64,000 nt of DNA from assembly GCA_041664225.1 (NCBI GenBank), contig JBAYLE010000003.1:15608-79607 (forward strand). Reading direction: 5' to 3'. The DNA is from Parcubacteria group bacterium (lineage in GTDB: Bacteria > Patescibacteriota > Minisyncoccia > Moranbacterales > UBA2206). This document shows, piece after piece, positions 4,165-12,771 of the stretch (position 1 is the first letter of the stretch; each line of letters begins with the position of its first letter). The position numbers and the translations under genes are program-made. The notes below the pieces were generated by a model. The model was given only the letters and a program-made list of their open reading frames with translations, was not told where the DNA came from and did no database searches.

Positions 4165-4237
4165 GCGCTTATAGCTCAGTGGATAGAGCGTCTGGTTGCG
4201 GTCCAGAAGGTCGCAGGTTCGATTCCTGCTAAGCGCA
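4165..4237 (+). tRNA. tRNA-Arg (anticodon read as GCG; assignment moderately certain)
   Basis: Cloverleaf gcgctta/taagcgc, D-arm gctcagtggatagagc, anticodon stem tctgg/ccaga with loop ttGCGgt, T-arm gcaggttcgattcctgc. Confidence 0.7.
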
Positions 4238-4320
4238 CTAAAGTGTTCCTGCTCGCTTCGATTCGACAAAATGTCTCATCGAGTCGAAGCTAGCTAAGCG
4301 CATAAATTACACTTATCACT

Positions 4321-8548: not shown

Positions 8549-9706
8549 TTAAACAAATTTACTCTGGATTGCCTCTTTATAGGTATCCAGAAGTATCTGA
8601 GTACAGATTTTATCGGTATATTTTTCACGCGCGATTTTTGCTGACATTTCGCCGAATTTTTTACGCAAATCAGCATCACTGATCAATTTATTTACTGCAC
8701 TGGCAAACTCATCTTCTTTTTCAGAAACCAAAAATCCATTTATATTGTTTTCAACCAGGTCGCAAATTCCGGTAGCATTGACCGCCACTACCGGCAACCC
8801 CATATACATCGCTTCCGTGATAATCATCCCCTGCGTTTCTGATTTGGAAGCATAGACAAAAATATCGCTAGCGGCATAATAATCTTTTACTTCTTCTTTT
8901 GGCACCTCGCCCGCAAAAACAACTTGCACCCCAACTCCTGCGTTCTCGGCCATTTTTTGCAGAGTGTTTTTCAAATATCCACCACCGATCGAAAGTATTT
9001 TTATGCCTTTATTTTTTTTGAGAAGCGGAATGATCGAACGGAATAAAAATTCAGTGTTTTTTTCACTGGTCAGCCGGCAATTGAGAAACAAGACTATTTC
9101 ATCATCTTTTATTCCAAACTTTTCTCTGATTTTTCCGCCATCAGCGTTTTTAAAGAGATCCTCCTCCACTCCGGTAGCGATAGCTTTTATTTTCGGATTA
9201 GTTACCCCCCATTTTTGAATAATCGGGATCACAGACTGTGTCGGTGTTATGACATAATCAGCCTTGTTGGCATAATTTCTCGCGTTTCTAATCGCCCACC
9301 ACGCCGCCAGCTTTTCCGGAATGATTGGAAAAAAATGAGCGTATTGATCATAGAGCGTATGCCAAGTGAAAACCAACGGGATTTTCTTTTTGCGCGCCCA
9401 CTTAGCCGCCGCCGCGCCCAAAAGATTGGGATGCTGAGAATGAATAATGTCCAGATCCAAATTAGCGATAATTTTATCTATTTTCCGCGAATACGGAACT
9501 GCCAGCGGAAATCTGAATTTAAATTCAATATCCATTGAGGGATAACGAAAAACATGCGGATTATTGTCCGCATAGCCTTTCCATTTTGAAGCAAAAACAA
9601 AAACCTCGTGCCCCATCTTTTCAAATTGAGCGCGAAAACTTTCAATGGAGCAAGTTACTCCATAAGGATTAGGAAGATAATTATTAGTAAAAATTCCTAT
9701 TTTCAT
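8549..9706 (-). CDS. Glycosyltransferase family 4 (GT-B)
   Basis: C-terminal EAMYMGLPVVA...GFLV motif typical of GT4/RfaG-like enzymes. Confidence 0.75.
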   Translation of the reverse strand: MKIGIFTNNYLPNPYGVTCSIESFRAQFEKMGHEVFVFASKWKGYADNNPHVFRYPSMDIEFKFRFPLAVPYSRKIDKIIANLDLDIIHSQHPNLLGAAAAKWARKKKIPLVFTWHTLYDQYAHFFPIIPEKLAAWWAIRNARNYANKADYVITPTQSVIPIIQKWGVTNPKIKAIATGVEEDLFKNADGGKIREKFGIKDDEIVLFLNCRLTSEKNTEFLFRSIIPLLKKNKGIKILSIGGGYLKNTLQKMAENAGVGVQVVFAGEVPKEEVKDYYAASDIFVYASKSETQGMIITEAMYMGLPVVAVNATGICDLVENNINGFLVSEKEDEFASAVNKLISDADLRKKFGEMSAKIAREKYTDKICTQILLDTYKEAIQSKFV

Positions 9707-10524
9707 AAGGAATTAATAAATTTGAGGATATCCTCAAATACATGTTCATTTTTAATATCAGAAATAAAAGTATGATAAGCCTGCTTAACATATTTTTTCT
9801 GTTTTCTTTCCGATCTCACGTCGGCATACATACACTCCAGGTTATCCTTGGTCGCTATATGATCGTGGGTAGACTGGATCATCAGGCAAGGCTGGATTAT
9901 TGTGGGTAAAGTTTCTCTGGTTTTTTTGATCAAATCAAAAGTTTCCAGGGCGCTATCAATCGGATATTTTTGATAGGAAATTAGGCGTGTAATGGTGGTT
10001 GAGAGCCCAAAAGTCGGCGGATAAAATTTTCGGTGATATTTTCCGAAAAGTTTCATTATTTTTGCCACTGCCACTGACGCCGTTTCATATTTTATTTTAT
10101 ACGGCATCGCCATCAGAACTAGACCGGCTACGTCATTGCTTCCAACCGAAAAATGCACCGCCAAGTTAGCGCCAATCGATGTCCCTCCGATAAAAACTTC
10201 TTCGCAATTTTTTTTCAATTCTTGATGGGCTGCCTTCACATCATCAAGCCAGTCTGCCCACTTCACGCCTTCCAGGTCTTCTGGTTTCATACCATGGCCT
10301 TTCAACATCGGACCATAAACTGTGTATCCGTTTTCATTCAGATACTTTCCTAGGCGCCTAACTTCATACGCCGTTGAAGTCCAGCCGTGCAACAAAAGCA
10401 CGCCTTTGCCGTTCGTGCCCTTGAAGTAGAAAGGCTGGTTGATCAGCGACCTTTCTTCCGCGTAAAGCAGATTTGGATCGGCGAATAATATGCTTTTTAC
10501 TGATTTTAAAAGTCTTTTTACCAT
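9703..10524 (-). CDS. Alpha/beta-hydrolase (carboxylesterase / monoacylglycerol-lipase-like)
   Basis: HGWTST...GHG N-terminal motif, GxSxG nucleophile elbow GTSIGA, acid/His region HDHIA. The start codon overlaps the stop of the GT4 gene by 4 nt. Confidence 0.65.
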   Translation of the reverse strand: MVKRLLKSVKSILFADPNLLYAEERSLINQPFYFKGTNGKGVLLLHGWTSTAYEVRRLGKYLNENGYTVYGPMLKGHGMKPEDLEGVKWADWLDDVKAAHQELKKNCEEVFIGGTSIGANLAVHFSVGSNDVAGLVLMAMPYKIKYETASVAVAKIMKLFGKYHRKFYPPTFGLSTTITRLISYQKYPIDSALETFDLIKKTRETLPTIIQPCLMIQSTHDHIATKDNLECMYADVRSERKQKKYVKQAYHTFISDIKNEHVFEDILKFINSL

Positions 10525-10677
10525 AGTTAAAATCTTATCACTTATTGCCGTATTTGCATAGATTCACACAAAAAGCGTATCCATTACAAAACAGCAAACT
10601 CGGATCTGGCTATTGATTTATTTTGAGTTTATGTTATGCTTTCTACTGTTATTCGGAAATTGAAAATTACTGCAAAT

Positions 10678-10752
10678 GGCGCCATCGTCTAGTGGTTAGG
10701 ACACCAGGTTTTCATCCTGGTAACAGGGGTCCGATTCCCCTTGGCGCTACCA
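10678..10752 (+). tRNA. tRNA-Glu (anticodon TTC), CCA encoded
   Basis: Acceptor ggcgcca/tggcgct, anticodon loop ttTTCat. T-loop is tccgatt, an atypical form also seen in the tRNA-Arg(TCT) of this window. Confidence 0.8.
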
Positions 10753-10953
10753 AAGAAAAAATTCAGGCCTAAGCCTGGATTTTTTGTTTGTTATGGCGCC
10801 GGGGAATCGGACGGGCAGAAGCGAGACCAGTCGTCTCGACGCAGGCGAACGCCGACAAATTCGAGCGAGCGAGCCTGCCTGCCGGTAGGCAGGGATTTGG
10901 CGCTGCCCAGGACAAGGAGTCCGCCGCGAACTACGCGGAATTCCCCTTGGCGC
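10753..10953. other. GC-rich ~190-bp segment bounded by a direct repeat of the tRNA-Glu 3' end; putative relic of a tRNA-targeted integration
   Basis: ttccccttggcgctac at the tRNA 3' end (10735-10750) recurs at 10936-10951. An inverted partial copy ggcgccggggaatcggac lies at 10797-10814. Local GC is far above the surroundings. The ORF-track ORFs here look spurious. Confidence 0.45.
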
Positions 10954-11052
10954 TACAAATTTTATTGAGAGAATCAGCGCAGTTTTTTCAGCTAGAGACT
11001 AAACTGTGCTATAATTAAAAAAGACAAACTCCTAAAAAATTATCAAAAAAAT

Positions 11053-11361
11053 ATGGCAAAACAAAATTGCTGGGAATTTAAAAAATGTGGACGCTACCCT
11101 GGCGGAGAAAACGAAAAAGAGCTGGGTGTTTGCCCGGTAAGCACAGAGCCCAGAACTGATGGAATACATGGCGGCATGAACGCTGGGCGGGTATGCTGGC
11201 TGATTGCTGGGACATTGTGCAAGGGCAATATTCAAGGTACATTCGCGCAGAAACTTGGCAACTGTATGACTGATTGTGAGTTCTACAAAAAAGTAAAAAC
11301 GGATGAGGGCGAAAATTTCGAATTCAGTGGTAATGTACTAAGGAAATTGCAGCCAAAATAA
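11053..11361 (+). CDS. Small stand-alone four-Cys 'two-CW'-type domain protein (putative metal/redox-binding), 102 aa
   Basis: Two CW motifs with partner cysteines: NCWEFKKCG and RVCWLIAGTLC, plus CMTDCEFY. Extended -10 promoter tgcTATAAT upstream; terminator downstream. Confidence 0.55.
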   Translation: MAKQNCWEFKKCGRYPGGENEKELGVCPVSTEPRTDGIHGGMNAGRVCWLIAGTLCKGNIQGTFAQKLGNCMTDCEFYKKVKTDEGENFEFSGNVLRKLQPK

Positions 11362-11428: not shown

Positions 11429-12136
11429 TTATTTTTCTGTACAACAACTTATGTTTTCCGCGTGGAAATAAAGTGAATCATTTGAGTCCTGCTTTCCAAC
11501 TGCCCGTAAAAATTTTCCAACCGCATAATCCGGAACATATGGAAAAACTTTGTCATCGCCTAAGCCAACTTTCACTAATCTTCCATTTTCTTCTTGAATT
11601 ACAACCTCATTATTGGTCACACTCATAATTTCCCCCATCACCGCCATTTCTTCAGGCATGACCCGGTTAGTATAGAGTCCATTTATCAACTGTTCTCCCC
11701 CCATAACCGCGAAAAAGGAGCCCAAAAAGACAATTGCTACCAAAAGAGCCGTGGCCGGAATATTAAAAGAATGTCTAATTCCCAAAGAAAAATTAAGCTT
11801 GTGTACGACATAGCTCCCCAGTATTAAAGTGATCAGAAAAAGTGCCAAGTAATCATAAGGAAAGGAAAGCAAAAAAACCTTGAGACCTGGAACGCCCAGC
11901 TTCAGAAAATTAAGGGCACCCGTTTTTTTGAAAACATACAAAATAACTGACACTGCCAGCGCCCCGCCCAATATAGCCAGCATCAAAATGCTTTCCAACC
12001 CTGCTTTTTCAGCCACAAAAAAAAGCGGGCTTCTCATTTTTATGCGCTTTTTTTTGATCTGATTCATCACCCTGTTCCTCATATCCACTCCGCTCTGCGC
12101 GCTCTGGATCAAATTTTTGTCAAAGCCTCCTTCCAT
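11429..12136 (-). CDS. Membrane protein co-transcribed with the ECF sigma factor (possible anti-sigma factor)
   Basis: Start overlaps the sigma-gene stop (ATGA coupling); 3-4 predicted TM helices; no recognisable zinc-finger anti-sigma motif. Confidence 0.4.
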   Translation of the reverse strand: MEGGFDKNLIQSAQSGVDMRNRVMNQIKKKRIKMRSPLFFVAEKAGLESILMLAILGGALAVSVILYVFKKTGALNFLKLGVPGLKVFLLSFPYDYLALFLITLILGSYVVHKLNFSLGIRHSFNIPATALLVAIVFLGSFFAVMGGEQLINGLYTNRVMPEEMAVMGEIMSVTNNEVVIQEENGRLVKVGLGDDKVFPYVPDYAVGKFLRAVGKQDSNDSLYFHAENISCCTEK

Positions 12137-12771
12137 TATTTTTTCCTCTGAGTATTCTGGATTTTTTTTAGTTTTTCCATTTCCTCAGACAATTTCTTTT
12201 TAGCCCTATTAATTAAAGTGCCGACCGTATTCACTGGTTTGCCCAAAATTTCACCTACTTCTTCATAAGACTTGTCTGAGAAATATCGGAGTAACAGAAC
12301 TTGTTTGTATTTTATTGGCAATCCATTGATGGCCTGGTCAACATCATCGATCGCTTCTTTTCTGATCCAGGCGTCATCTGCCCCGTCCTCTGTGCTGCTG
12401 CTTTCCAGCTTATCTTTGGTTGAACTGATATCTTCCCACGAAATAAAGCGCTTCAGTGATTTACGCTTGATATAATTCACGGCTTCATTGTGGGCAATAC
12501 GATAGATCCACGAAGAAAATTTACGGCTGGAATCGTAGCTGTGCAAATTTTTATATGCCTTGATAAAGACGTCCTGCAACAAATCCTCAGCCTCTTCTCG
12601 GTTTCCAACGAGCCTATATAGATAGGCAAAAAGTTTTCCTTGATATCTCTCAATTATTTCAGCATATCTTTCAGGCTCCGTTTCGCGAACTAAATCAATA
12701 AGCTCATTATCATTCAAGATTTGGCCTTGTTTGGTGGCTTTTTTAATGTCTAGACTTTGTTTTCCAGTCAT
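12136..12771 (-). CDS. RNA polymerase sigma factor, ECF (sigma-70 family group 4)
   Basis: Region 2 LLQDVFIKAYKNL...WIYRIAHNEAVNYIKR and region 4 HTH SYEEVGEILGKPVNTVGTLINRAKKKL. Confidence 0.8.
   Translation of the reverse strand: MTGKQSLDIKKATKQGQILNDNELIDLVRETEPERYAEIIERYQGKLFAYLYRLVGNREEAEDLLQDVFIKAYKNLHSYDSSRKFSSWIYRIAHNEAVNYIKRKSLKRFISWEDISSTKDKLESSSTEDGADDAWIRKEAIDDVDQAINGLPIKYKQVLLLRYFSDKSYEEVGEILGKPVNTVGTLINRAKKKLSEEMEKLKKIQNTQRKK

What the first reader, a model, noticed from the sequence alone, without database searches (positions are those of the whole stretch)
10678..10953. GC-rich 190-bp segment bounded by a direct repeat of the tRNA-Glu 3' end: relic attachment site
The 16 nt ttccccttggcgctac that end tRNA-Glu recur at 10936-10951. 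Between the two copies lies ~190 bp with GC far above the local 35-40%. At 10797-10814 there is an inverted partial copy of the same tRNA 3' half (ggcgccggggaatcggac). This is the layout left by integrase-mediated insertion into a tRNA 3' end (attL inside the tRNA, attR distal) after most of the island has been deleted. The two-CW gene and the ECF sigma/anti-sigma pair lie immediately beyond it.
Basis: partly seen in the sequence, partly recalled or inferred. Interest (0 to 1): 0.6.

Follow-up and report, generated by a model that had tools for sequence, protein, structure and literature searches.

The report
Conserved tRNA-Glu-linked GC-rich hairpin element
The GC-rich stretch behind this tRNA-Glu gene is one copy of a conserved, previously uncatalogued ~160-base hairpin element built from copies of the tRNA's own end and found behind tRNA-Glu in several Patescibacteria, rather than the leftover scar of a lost genomic island.

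Summary
tRNA-Glu is at 10678-10752. Its last 17 nt recur at 10940-10956. An inverted copy sits at 10795-10812. The 162-bp segment 10795-10956 is 67% GC against 42% for the window.

The "relic of a deleted island" reading is not supported. The segment has homologues directly behind tRNA-Glu plus a terminator in at least five other lineages (a syntenic Parcubacteria MAG, Komeilibacteria, three further contigs), plus truncated copies. None has an integrase or a larger insert. Against the syntenic MAG, four-fold codon sites are saturated (27%) and the flanks do not align, yet the element is 79% identical. Closer relatives lack it.

Its ends follow each genome's own tRNA. Its 5' end is acceptor 5' strand, T-stem 5' strand and an inverted T-loop. 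Its 3' end is tRNA positions 58-74. The two ends pair into an acceptor/T-stem-like helix that closes a three-way junction.

Best reading (0.4): a small, non-autonomous insertion into the tRNA T-loop that brings its own replacement 3' end and terminator. Main rival (0.3): a functional RNA derived from the tRNA and read through from it. No Rfam family matches, and covariation is absent.

The parts
10678..10752 (+). tRNA-Glu(UUC), CCA encoded, T-loop UCCGAUU (C55). Its last 17-19 nt are the proximal repeat X (10734-10750).
   Evidence: ARAGORN; Rfam tRNA 63.2 bits. Identical tRNA in L010 and L026.
10756..10785 (.). T1: intrinsic terminator hairpin with an A-tract before it and a T-tract after it (bidirectional). 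It lies at the centre of a 40-nt-arm inverted repeat joining the tRNA 3' half to X'.
   Evidence: Terminator scan on both strands; inverted repeat I1 10729-10768 / 10773-10812. The equivalent hairpin is present in homologues with different stems but the same flanks.
10795..10812 (+). X': GGCGCC GGGG AATCGGAC. This is the acceptor 5' strand, the T-stem 5' strand and an inverted copy of the T-loop. Equivalently, it is the reverse complement of tRNA positions 53-72 lacking the two A's that would pair with U65 and U66.
   Evidence: In homologues the CGRAC part matches the local T-loop (GGAC with GUCC, GAAC with GUUC), and L035 has GAGAAUCGAA with a CUCC T-stem.
10813..10828 (+). Conserved block GGGCAG-AAGCGAGACC. 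GGGCAG is the 5' arm of helix P2.
   Evidence: GGGCAG is invariant in all copies and the nAGCGAG part is kept in most (L042 has CAAUGAG; L056 diverges after GGGCAGCAGC).
10874..10893 (+). A 20-nt perfect hairpin, CCTGCCTGCCGGTAGGCAGG, that is a discrete insertion specific to this lineage.
   Evidence: Exactly absent from L047/L066 (GAGCGAG|GATTTGG) and from L026. The same 20-mer occurs 15 times in 11 unrelated viral contigs.
10899..10923 (+). Conserved block GGCGCTGCCC AGGACAAGGAG TCCG. CTGCCC (10903-10908) is the 3' arm of P2. AGGRCAAnGAG-UCCG is the junction sequence.
   Evidence: Conserved in the window, L047, L051, L042 and L039, and recognisable in L035.
10924..10938 (+). P3 hairpin CCGCG-AACTA-CGCGG. 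It interrupts what would otherwise be a continuous copy of the T-loop and 3' end (GTCCG|ATTCCCC...). Its sequence and register vary among homologues.
10940..10956 (+). Distal repeat X: ATTCCCCTTGGCGCTAC, equal to tRNA positions 58-74. It pairs with X' to form helix P1 (13-14 bp with a UU bulge).
   Evidence: In each homologue the distal copy carries that genome's own tRNA 3' end, for example ATTCCCCGTAGCGCTAC in L042 and CTGGGGCTAC in L035.
10795..10956 (+). The whole element: 162 nt, 66.7% GC. P1 closes a three-way junction (P2 with variable distal hairpins, and P3).
   Evidence: MFE -82.4 kcal/mol, z = -3.9; GC; homologues.

Best explanation
Window 10734-10939 is a small insertion into the T-loop of tRNA-Glu that repairs the gene it interrupts. 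It belongs to a family found in several Patescibacteria.

The inserted DNA starts with its own copy of tRNA positions 58-76. A bidirectional terminator (T1) follows, so the gene still yields a normal tRNA. Next come an inverted copy of the T-arm/acceptor (X') and a GC-rich core of conserved sequence blocks and variable hairpins. The original tRNA 3' end is pushed ~200 nt downstream as the distal repeat. In some genomes that repeat is still followed by a second terminator.

No recombinase travels with the element, so it would be non-autonomous. It would have been inserted by a T-loop-specific recombinase acting in trans, or spread by recombination through the tRNA homology. Because tRNA-Glu is its only target, there are one or two copies per genome.

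If T1 is read through, X' can pair in two ways. It can pair with the tRNA's own 3' half (an 84-nt hairpin). Or it can pair with the distal copy, closing a three-way junction with an acceptor/T-stem-like helix.

Shown: the anatomy, the family, its sequence conservation, its absence from closer relatives, and the lack of any integrase or larger form. Inferred: the insertion mechanism, mobility, and transcription.
For: - The repeat boundaries are the same in all lineages. The left edge is at A58 in the T-loop and the right edge is at A73-C74.
- The proximal copy is followed by T1 in every full copy. The distal copy is followed by a second terminator in L042 and L035, and by a terminator-like hairpin, read by eye and not called by the scan, in L047/L066.
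- Full copies lie behind tRNA-Glu in L026/L051, L047/L066-L069, L042, L039/L044/L071/L072 and L035. Truncated copies are in L063, L037 and L056, and there is an orphan X'-GGRCAG in L071.
- The genomic contexts differ: hydrolase/MurI, rpsP/GT2, fmt, and ftsI.
- The element follows both tRNA-Glu(UUC) and tRNA-Glu(CUC) genes.
- Closer relatives lack it. These are L010 and L011 at 69% hydrolase identity; in L007 (94% two-CW identity) it is absent on the side the contig shows.
- Against syntenic L026 the element is 79% identical while four-fold sites are at 27% and the flanks do not align.
- Stems are almost all Watson-Crick and fold equally well on both strands. There is no covariation, and perfect hairpins have been inserted into it. 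This is what DNA-level palindromic elements look like.
- The full read-through RNA folds as tRNA-Glu with everything from 10734 to 10939 as a T-loop insertion.
- The same lineages show other invasions of tRNA genes that carry a replacement copy: L009 and L027 (GIY-YIG plus tRNA-Glu) and L034 (tRNA-Arg).
- An analogous X / X' / GC-rich core / X layout follows a tRNA-Ser in L028.
Against: - No integrase, transposase or autonomous version was found in any locus. No copy was found in viral contigs, phages or plasmids.
- No genome was caught polymorphic for the element.
- An excised circle of ~205 bp would be very small for a tyrosine recombinase.
- The inverted copy X' has no role in classical att sites.
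- X' and the distal repeat both follow the local tRNA sequence. That needs either gene conversion or selection; a fixed attP does not explain it.
- The upstream promoter region and the T1 flanks are also similar between the window and L066. The whole tRNA module may therefore simply be inherited vertically.
- Presence at the syntenic site in the window and in L026 fits ancestral presence with later losses, and that favours a host function.
Confidence: 0.4

Rival explanations
1. The element is a functional RNA derived from the tRNA. A tandem copy of tRNA-Glu lost its D and anticodon arms and gained a large structured insert in its T-loop. It is transcribed by read-through of the leaky terminator T1. 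Its acceptor/T-stem-like closing helix (leader AU|GGCGCC at the 5' end, ...GCGCUA-C at the 3' end) lets the tRNA-processing enzymes (RNase P, a 3' nuclease, the CCA-adding enzyme) cut it out. The conserved single-stranded junction blocks (CGRAC, AGGRCAAnGAG, GCGAG repeats) would be the working surface. X' can alternatively sequester the 3' half of tRNA-Glu.
For: - The sequence is constrained: 79% identity against saturated neutral sites at a syntenic site.
- The 5' boundary repeats the tRNA's own leader junction, ATGGCGCC. The 3' boundary is exactly at A73-C74 in all lineages.
- The UU bulge is what results when the acceptor 5' strand is fused to the T-stem 5' strand without A7 and A49.
- The fold is stable: z = -3.9 for the window, -2.5, -2.4 and -6.7 for three homologues.
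- The three-way-junction architecture is kept while the distal hairpins vary.
- There is no room for a promoter between T1 and the element. Terminators or terminator-like hairpins follow it in three lineages.
- The ends follow the local tRNA.
- These genomes are small and rarely keep 160 nt of useless DNA. This last point rests on established knowledge of Patescibacteria.
Against: - The covariation term is positive (+3.8). P1 and P2 never vary, and the interior helices are not kept in register.
- There is no strand preference from G-U pairs.
- L039's fold is no better than shuffled sequence (z = +0.99).
- The acceptor 5' strand is missing in L051, L042, L063 and L037.
- Truncated copies exist, and close relatives lack the element.
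- No Rfam family matches the window copy or any homologue.
- There is no expression evidence.
Confidence: 0.3
2. One reading: attL/attR left by integrase-mediated insertion of a large island into the tRNA-Glu 3' end, after which nearly all of the island was deleted, leaving about 190 bp of decaying scar.
For: A 17-nt direct repeat from the T-loop to the 3' end is the typical identity block for T-loop-targeting tyrosine integrases (own knowledge: Williams 2002, Nucleic Acids Res 30:866). The repeat is real. The region next to tRNA-Glu is a hot spot of gene turnover among relatives: two-CW in the window and L007, a pilin-like gene in L011, MurI in L026, efflux genes in L009, and a 351-aa ORF between the tRNA and T1-X' in L056.
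Against: The same short segment with the same boundaries recurs in at least five other lineages. Independent deletions would not converge in this way. It is conserved at 79% where neutral sites are saturated. No locus shows an integrase or a longer insert between the repeats. There is no similarity to phages, plasmids or viral contigs. The variable genes lie outside the repeats.
Confidence: 0.1
3. A neutral by-product of DNA repair. The terminator palindrome grew outward by fold-back or template-switch synthesis, copying the tRNA 3' end in inverted orientation (X'). A tandem partial duplication gave the distal copy. Gene conversion keeps the three copies alike. GC-rich hairpins then accumulated in between.
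For: X-T1-X' is one long quasi-palindrome: 40-nt arms in the window, and 23 perfect plus 15 further bp in L042. Perfect hairpins have been inserted. A second copy of the tRNA-Arg 3' end, split by a 40-nt hairpin, lies at window 4246-4303. The ends follow the local tRNA, as conversion would predict.
Against: This does not explain the conserved non-tRNA blocks (GGGCAGnAGCGAG, GCGCTGCCCAGGRCAAnGAG) shared by Komeilibacteria and Moranbacteria-like genomes. It also does not explain 79% identity against saturated flanks.
Confidence: 0.12

Closest known systems
attL/attR of tyrosine-recombinase elements integrated in the T-loop sublocation of tRNA genes (own knowledge: Reiter 1989; Williams 2002)
   Same: A direct repeat running from the T-loop to the tRNA's 3' end. 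The inserted DNA restores the tRNA 3' end. The displaced original 3' end lies downstream. Related genomes provide sites without the insert.
   Different: Only ~205 bp lie between the repeats. No integrase is present in any of about nine loci. The insert is a conserved family rather than a variable remnant. It carries an inverted T-arm copy that follows the local tRNA sequence.
Non-autonomous integrative elements flanked by att sites (CIMEs of Streptococcus; own knowledge) and MITE-type miniature elements
   Same: No recombinase of their own. Ends define the unit. They fold as hairpins through terminal inverted sequences.
   Different: CIMEs are kilobases long. MITEs are multi-copy with 2-10-bp target duplications. 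Here there is one copy per tRNA-Glu gene, a 17-nt duplication, and ends made of tRNA sequence. No second copy exists in 64 kb.
tRNA-like acceptor/T-arm mimics (tmRNA tRNA-like domain, mascRNA, minihelix substrates of RNase P and the CCA-adding enzyme)
   Same: A closing helix with the sequence of the tRNA-Glu acceptor stem stacked on its T-stem. The 3' end carries the discriminator base. The leader junction is like the tRNA's.
   Different: There is no T-loop; it is replaced by a ~125-nt three-way junction. ARAGORN, the Rfam tRNA, tmRNA and mascRNA models do not score it (the permuted-tmRNA hit is 14.5 bits against a threshold of 47). Half of the homologues lack the acceptor 5' strand.
Mobile GC-rich palindromic clusters in AT-rich genomes (yeast mitochondrial GC clusters, fungal double-hairpin elements, Rickettsia palindromic elements; own knowledge)
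   Same: Short GC-rich perfect hairpins appear as discrete insertions in AT-rich DNA, including inside RNA genes. Examples here are the 20-mer at 10874-10893 and the 30-43-nt hairpins in tRNA anticodon loops of relatives.
   Different: Those elements are short and highly repeated within one genome. The 160-nt element here has conserved non-palindromic blocks and is tied to a single tRNA gene.
Functional tRNA 3' trailers (3'ETS-leuZ sRNA sponge of E. coli; own knowledge)
   Same: A non-coding sequence directly downstream of a tRNA that could be co-transcribed with it.
   Different: Here a terminator lies between the tRNA and the element. There is no known target, no expression data and no sequence relation.

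Membership tests
Integrase-mediated genomic island at a tRNA gene (attL/attR) | Direct repeat of the tRNA 3' part flanking the insert | tested here: met
   17 nt exact at 10734-10750 and 10940-10956. The same boundaries (A58 to C74) hold in the homologues.
Integrase-mediated genomic island at a tRNA gene (attL/attR) | Tyrosine or serine recombinase gene inside or next to the insert, here or in a longer relative | tested here: not met
   Precomputed Pfam tables list no recombinase for the window locus, L047/L066-L069 or L071/L072. A locus ORF listing shows no additional long ORF between the repeats in L042, L044, L051 or L063, although those ORFs were not scanned against Pfam. The X'/core motif is absent from viral contigs, phages and plasmids.
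Integrase-mediated genomic island at a tRNA gene (attL/attR) | Empty site in related genomes | tested here: met
   L011 has the tRNA in the same orientation with no element. L010 has the tRNA inverted with no element, and L007 has it inverted with no element on the side its contig shows.
Integrase-mediated genomic island at a tRNA gene (attL/attR) | For a relic: the remnant decays neutrally and differs between lineages | tested here: not met
   79% identity to L026 against 27% at four-fold sites. Conserved blocks are shared by five or more lineages.
tRNA gene or tRNA pseudogene | Cloverleaf recognised by tRNA models | tested here: not met
   ARAGORN finds only the tRNA at 10678-10752. Rfam tRNA gives no hit in 10786-10960 even at E<=10. 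Only the acceptor and T-stem strands are recognisable.
tmRNA (one-piece or permuted) | tRNA-like domain plus a tag reading frame, scored by ARAGORN or Rfam | tested here: not met
   ARAGORN finds no tmRNA. The tmRNA_permuted hit is 14.5 bits against a gathering score of 47 and lies over the tRNA/T1 region, not the element.
Structured non-coding RNA family | Match to a curated family | tested here: not met
   No Rfam 15 family at E<=10 for the window copy or at E<=1 for the homologues.
Structured non-coding RNA family | Helices supported by compensatory changes | tested here: inconclusive
   With five sequences, P1 and P2 are invariant and the covariation term is +3.8. A few double changes occur in small interior hairpins among three close copies. 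There are too few sequences to decide.
Structured non-coding RNA family | Own promoter and terminator, or evidence of a transcript | tested here: inconclusive
   No promoter-like site lies between T1 and the element. A terminator follows the element in L042 and L035, and a terminator-like hairpin follows it in L047. Transcription itself cannot be tested with these tools.
MITE / REP-type repeated palindromic element | Multiple dispersed copies in one genome with short target duplications | tested here: not met
   No second copy in the 64-kb window or in other held DNA of the same genome. The duplication is 17 nt.
Protein-coding sequence | Reading frame kept among homologues | tested here: not met
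   A 20-nt indel between the window and L047/L026, and variable hairpin lengths.
Retroelement primer-binding site | About 18 nt complementary to the 3' end of a tRNA including CCA, next to a reverse transcriptase | tested here: not met
   X' complements positions 53-72 with a 2-nt gap and does not cover A73-CCA. None of the neighbouring genes listed in the precomputed Pfam tables is a reverse transcriptase.

The most novel reading that the evidence does not exclude
The element is one face of an undescribed system in Patescibacteria. tRNA genes are repeatedly invaded by small GC-rich hairpin DNA. The invasions come with a built-in replacement: a new 3' end plus terminator here, and whole nested tRNA genes, with or without a GIY-YIG endonuclease, in relatives. 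The tRNA-Glu element itself would be a new class. It could be a tRNA-end-templated mobile hairpin whose arms copy its target in both orientations. Or it could be a new tRNA-derived 'minihelix' RNA whose 5' arm is antisense to the T-arm of tRNA-Glu.
Probability: 0.3. Interest if true: 0.8.

Novelty: new variant of a known kind. Interest (0 to 1): 0.58.

Why it matters
Duplications of a tRNA 3' end are routinely read as integrase scars and used to delimit genomic islands. Here that signature marks something else. It marks a short, conserved, recombinase-less element with tRNA-derived arms, kept in streamlined genomes across candidate-phylum-level distances and absent from Rfam.

If the element is mobile, it is an unusually small site-specific element whose single target is an essential gene that it repairs on arrival. 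If it is an RNA, it is a new tRNA-derived non-coding RNA family in a phylum whose RNA biology is already unusual (group I introns at tRNA position 35/36; PMC13011429).

Either way, it and the nested or disrupted tRNA genes seen beside it would affect tRNA annotation and island prediction in Patescibacteria MAGs.

Tried and rejected
- **Rfam.** Searched at permissive thresholds on the window copy and on five homologues. Only tRNAs were found, plus noise hits well below threshold.
- **Second tRNA or tmRNA.** ARAGORN finds none.
- **Coding potential.** Two ORFs of 75-76 aa cross the element. They are rejected because of a 20-nt indel between homologues.
- **BLAST against phages and plasmids.** No match.
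- **Viral-contig scans.** Scans with the paired ends, X'-GGGCAG, and two interior 20-mers found nothing. Only the inserted 20-nt hairpin is found there, in unrelated contexts.
- **Multi-copy MITE.** No other copy in the window or in the held loci.
- **Strand assignment.** Comparison of G-U pairs and MFE on the two strands is not informative.
- **Covariation.** None with five sequences.
- **Core-only nhmmer profile.** Built to link the L028 tRNA-Ser element and the L035 core to the family. Not significant; L042 is only E = 0.21. The L035 copy is accepted on architecture and short blocks only. The L028 copy is treated as analogous, not homologous.
- **ECF-sigma promoter inside X'-core.** Considered by eye and rejected: the GGAAT-to-CGTC spacing is 24 nt.
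- **Integron attC site.** Considered by eye and rejected: there are no R/L boxes.
- **Class C group II intron inserted after a terminator.** Considered by eye and rejected: the element is too short and no intron model scores.
- **Simple inversion between the repeats.** Considered as an explanation for the opposite tRNA orientation in L007 and L010. The positions of the repeats do not produce that arrangement.
- **Host relatedness.** Relatedness of the L066 genome to the window genome could not be measured because they share no genes. The comparison of element tree against host tree was therefore not possible.
- **Literature.** Searches found no description of the element or of the 20-mer.
Full report
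**1. What is in the sequence**

ARAGORN and Rfam place tRNA-Glu(UUC) at 10678-10752, with CCA encoded. Several features follow it on the + strand.

- An intrinsic terminator hairpin (T1) at 10756-10785. It has an A-tract before it and a T-tract after it, and the scan calls it on both strands.
- GGCGCCGGGGAATCGGAC at 10795-10812, called X' here.
- A GC-rich interior.
- ATTCCCCTTGGCGCTAC at 10940-10956, an exact copy of the tRNA's last 17 nt (10734-10750). The match is 20 nt with one mismatch.

X' is unique in the window (0.02 matches expected). The direct repeat is far beyond chance.

The segment 10795-10956 is 66.7% GC. Its flanks are 26-31% GC and the window mean is 41.7%. It is the highest 120-nt GC peak in the 64 kb.

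X' is the reverse complement of tRNA positions 53-72 without the two A's opposite U65 and U66. Because GGCGCC is its own reverse complement, X' can equally be read as acceptor 5' strand, then T-stem 5' strand (GGGG), then an inverted T-loop. Even the two bases before it (AT) repeat the tRNA's leader junction.

X' pairs with the distal repeat into a 13-14-bp helix with a UU bulge. This is the acceptor/T-stem stack of tRNA-Glu without its T-loop. The helix closes a three-way junction. The fold is -82.4 kcal/mol with z = -3.9.

Across T1, X' is also complementary to the real tRNA's 3' half, giving 40-nt inverted arms. In a read-through transcript, the predicted minimum-energy fold is a tRNA-Glu whose T-loop carries everything from 10734 to 10939 as an insertion.

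**2. Source and neighbours**

The window is a Parcubacteria-group (Patescibacteria) metagenome-assembled contig. Three independent assemblies are identical across the locus.

The neighbours are:
- an alpha/beta hydrolase (9703-10524, -);
- a two-CW-domain protein (11053-11361, +);
- an anti-sigma-like protein and an ECF sigma factor (11429-12771, -);
- TsaD.

**3. Relatives without the element**

- L011 and L012 (hydrolase 69% identical) have tRNA-Glu in the same orientation, followed directly by another gene.
- L010 (69%) has the promoter-plus-tRNA cassette in the opposite orientation, with no element.
- L007 (two-CW protein 94% identical) also has the cassette inverted. No element lies between the tRNA and the two-CW gene; its contig ends inside the tRNA.
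- L009 (83%) has the resident tRNA-Glu broken up by a GIY-YIG/tRNA-Glu cassette.

The two-CW gene itself is present only in the window and in L007. The DNA next to tRNA-Glu therefore turns over quickly in this clade.

**4. The element is a family**

A genome scan with the hydrolase found L026, a Parcubacteria MAG with hydrolase only 62% identical. It has the identical tRNA-Glu, a second copy of its 3' end ~200 nt downstream, and a homologous GC-rich segment in between.

A metagenome scan with the conserved 19-mer CGGGGAATCGRACGGGCAG gave 29 stretches. About twenty are chance hits in high-GC coding DNA. The rest are true copies, each directly behind a tRNA-Glu and a terminator hairpin.

- L051, which is the same contig as L026.
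- L047. Its genome recurs identically in L066-L069 from other samples, in a different gene context (rpsP, glycosyltransferase).
- L042, next to fmt.
- L039 and L044, identical to L071 and L072. These are Candidatus Komeilibacteria, next to mraZ-rsmH-ftsI.
- Truncated copies in L063, L037 and L056.

A more divergent copy follows tRNA-Glu in L035. The element follows tRNA-Glu(UUC) in some genomes and tRNA-Glu(CUC) in others. The precomputed Pfam tables list no recombinase for the window locus, L066-L069 or L071/L072. ORF listings show no longer insert at the other loci.

In L056, a 351-aa ORF sits between the tRNA and T1-X'. No Rfam family matches any copy. The element is absent from phage, plasmid and viral collections.

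**5. What is conserved**

Shared blocks are:
- X' (CGGGGAATCGRAC);
- GGGCAG-nAGCGAG;
- GCGAG-rich repeats;
- GCGCTGCCC-AGGRCAAnGAG-TCCG;
- GGAATTCCCC running into the tRNA 3' end.

GGGCAG and CTGCCC form helix P2 and never vary among the well-aligned copies. The interior of P2 and the P3 hairpin differ in sequence, length and register. They include long perfect hairpins in L042 and a precise 20-nt hairpin insertion in the window.

The ends follow each genome's own tRNA.
- GGAC pairs with T-loop GUCC, and GAAC pairs with GUUC.
- L035 has GAGAAUCGAA with a CUCC T-stem.
- The distal repeat carries the local acceptor sequence, for example GTAGCGCTAC in L042 and GGGGCTAC in L035.

The repeat always begins at A58 and ends at A73-C74.

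Against syntenic L026, the hydrolase is 62% identical at the protein level. Four-fold sites are 27% identical, which is saturation. The flanking intergenic DNA aligns at noise level (44-58%). X' plus core is 79% identical (101 of 128), and the tRNA and the distal repeat are 100% identical. The segment is therefore either constrained or recently spread. It is not decaying.

**6. RNA or DNA?**

RNAalifold on five copies gives a positive covariation term (+3.8). P1 and P2 are invariant, which says nothing either way.

Three close copies show a few double changes in small interior hairpins. Both strands fold about equally well, and G-U pairs are rare. The z-scores of the homologues are -2.5, -2.4, -6.7 and +1.0.

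There is no promoter-like site between T1 and the element. A terminator follows the element in L042 and L035, and a terminator-like hairpin follows it in L047/L066. Any transcript would therefore come from read-through of T1.

Among 42 tRNAs in the held loci, an inverted T-arm copy downstream is specific to tRNA-Glu. The one exception is a tRNA-Ser(GCU) in L028, which has an analogous X / X' / GC-rich core / X layout. Homology of its core to the tRNA-Glu elements is not supported.

**7. Interpretation**

The design is a copy of tRNA positions 58-76 plus a terminator at the start of the insert, with the old 3' end displaced downstream and sometimes still carrying a terminator. This is the logic of DNA that integrates into a tRNA gene and repairs it.

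The constant boundary in the T-loop matches the T-loop class of integrase sites (own knowledge: Williams 2002).

The insert, however, is a conserved ~200-bp unit rather than the remainder of an island, and no recombinase is seen anywhere. I therefore rank the readings as follows.

- **First (0.4):** a small non-autonomous insertion element, specific to tRNA-Glu, that repairs the gene it enters.
- **Close second (0.3):** a functional RNA derived from the tRNA, that is, a neofunctionalised partial tRNA-Glu copy closed by a minihelix.
- **Third (0.12):** a neutral product of palindrome extension and gene conversion.
- **Fourth (0.1):** the deleted-island relic.

The first two are not mutually exclusive.

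**8. Novelty**

The footprint belongs to a known kind: a tRNA 3'-end duplication around inserted DNA. The element is a new variant of that kind. It has a conserved core and tRNA-derived arms in both orientations. It has no Rfam entry, and the searched literature does not describe it. The closest published context is the abundance of introns in Patescibacteria tRNA genes (PMC13011429).

Noticed in passing
window 10874-10893; L013-L024: The 20-nt perfect hairpin CCTGCCTGCCGGTAGGCAGG is a precise insertion in the window's element. L047 reads GAGCGAG|GATTTGG at the same place. The identical 20-mer occurs 15 times in 11 unrelated IMG/VR contigs with GC from 33% to 72%. In the AT-rich contigs it is intergenic, and two contigs hold two or three copies each. 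About 1 occurrence per 10^12 bases is expected by chance. No Rfam family and no paper holds it. It may be a very small mobile hairpin.
   Followed up: partly
L009 500-1060; L027 3535-3855: In two relatives the resident tRNA-Glu is split. Its 5' part carries a 30-nt double hairpin in the anticodon loop at about position 35/36 (TCAGCCAGAGGCTGA + YCACCC...GGGTGR, with a compensatory change between the two loci). A GIY-YIG ORF follows; it is intact in L009 and degraded in L027. Then comes a complete tRNA-Glu, and then the 3' part of the split gene with the same hairpin. This looks like a homing-endonuclease/tRNA cassette nested in a disrupted tRNA gene.
   Followed up: partly
L034 10404-10600; L025 12125-12380: Two more nested tRNA genes. 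In L034, a tRNA-Arg(GCG) allele carries a 43-nt GC-rich hairpin in its anticodon loop. It is split in its variable region by a complete, different tRNA-Arg(GCG), so its T-arm and 3' end lie directly after the inner gene. In L025, a tRNA-like gene is split in its anticodon loop by an insert with ~20-nt inverted repeats that contains tRNA-Ser(UGA). Both were read by eye only.
   Followed up: no
window 4239-4303: tRNA-Arg(GCG) at 4165-4238 is followed, after 7 nt, by a second copy of its 3' end (TTCCTGCT...AAGCGCA). That copy is interrupted by a ~40-nt hairpin whose arms resemble the T-loop and its complement. The fold is -27.4 kcal/mol with z = -3.9. It is a smaller analogue of the tRNA-Glu layout in the same window, and relatives do not share it.
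   Followed up: partly
L028 11944-12185: tRNA-Ser(GCU) is followed by an inverted copy of its acceptor and T-arm (GGAGAGG...GGAGGGATTCGAA, split by a 23-nt hairpin). A ~60-nt GC-rich core follows, and then a direct copy of its T-loop-to-3' end (CGAATCCCTGCCTCTC). This is the same architecture as the tRNA-Glu element, but core homology is not supported.
   Followed up: partly
window 10540-10752 compared with L007 1-190 and L010 4690-4960: The promoter-plus-tRNA-Glu cassette (~150 nt) lies in opposite orientations in close relatives: + in the window, L011 and L026, and - in L007 and L010. Its position between the hydrolase and the sigma/anti-sigma genes is the same throughout. No flanking inverted repeats that would explain a simple inversion were found.
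   Followed up: partly
window 10731-10737: This tRNA-Glu has T-loop UCCGAUU, that is C at position 55, where U (pseudouridine) is nearly universal. The same is true in L010, L026 and L047. Other relatives have the usual UUCGAUU.
   Followed up: no
L071 8197-8214 (also L072 7695): In Komeilibacteria an orphan GGGGAATCGAACGGACAG lies 1.4 kb from the element, upstream of uppS, with no tRNA nearby. It matches X' plus the first core block with one mismatch.
   Followed up: no
L070 330-759: One short contig joins the 5' two-thirds of the L066-type tRNA-Glu to a different tRNA 3' part and unrelated downstream DNA. It is either an assembly chimera at a conserved tRNA segment or a recombinant allele.
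   Followed up: no
window 11053-11361: The two-CW-domain gene is present next to tRNA-Glu only in the window and in L007. It is absent from the syntenic loci L010, L011 and L026. Its closest homologues (60-79% identical) come from unrelated contexts and taxa, including Nitrospirota, Bacillota and a methanogen. This suggests lineage-specific acquisition next to the tRNA.
   Followed up: partly
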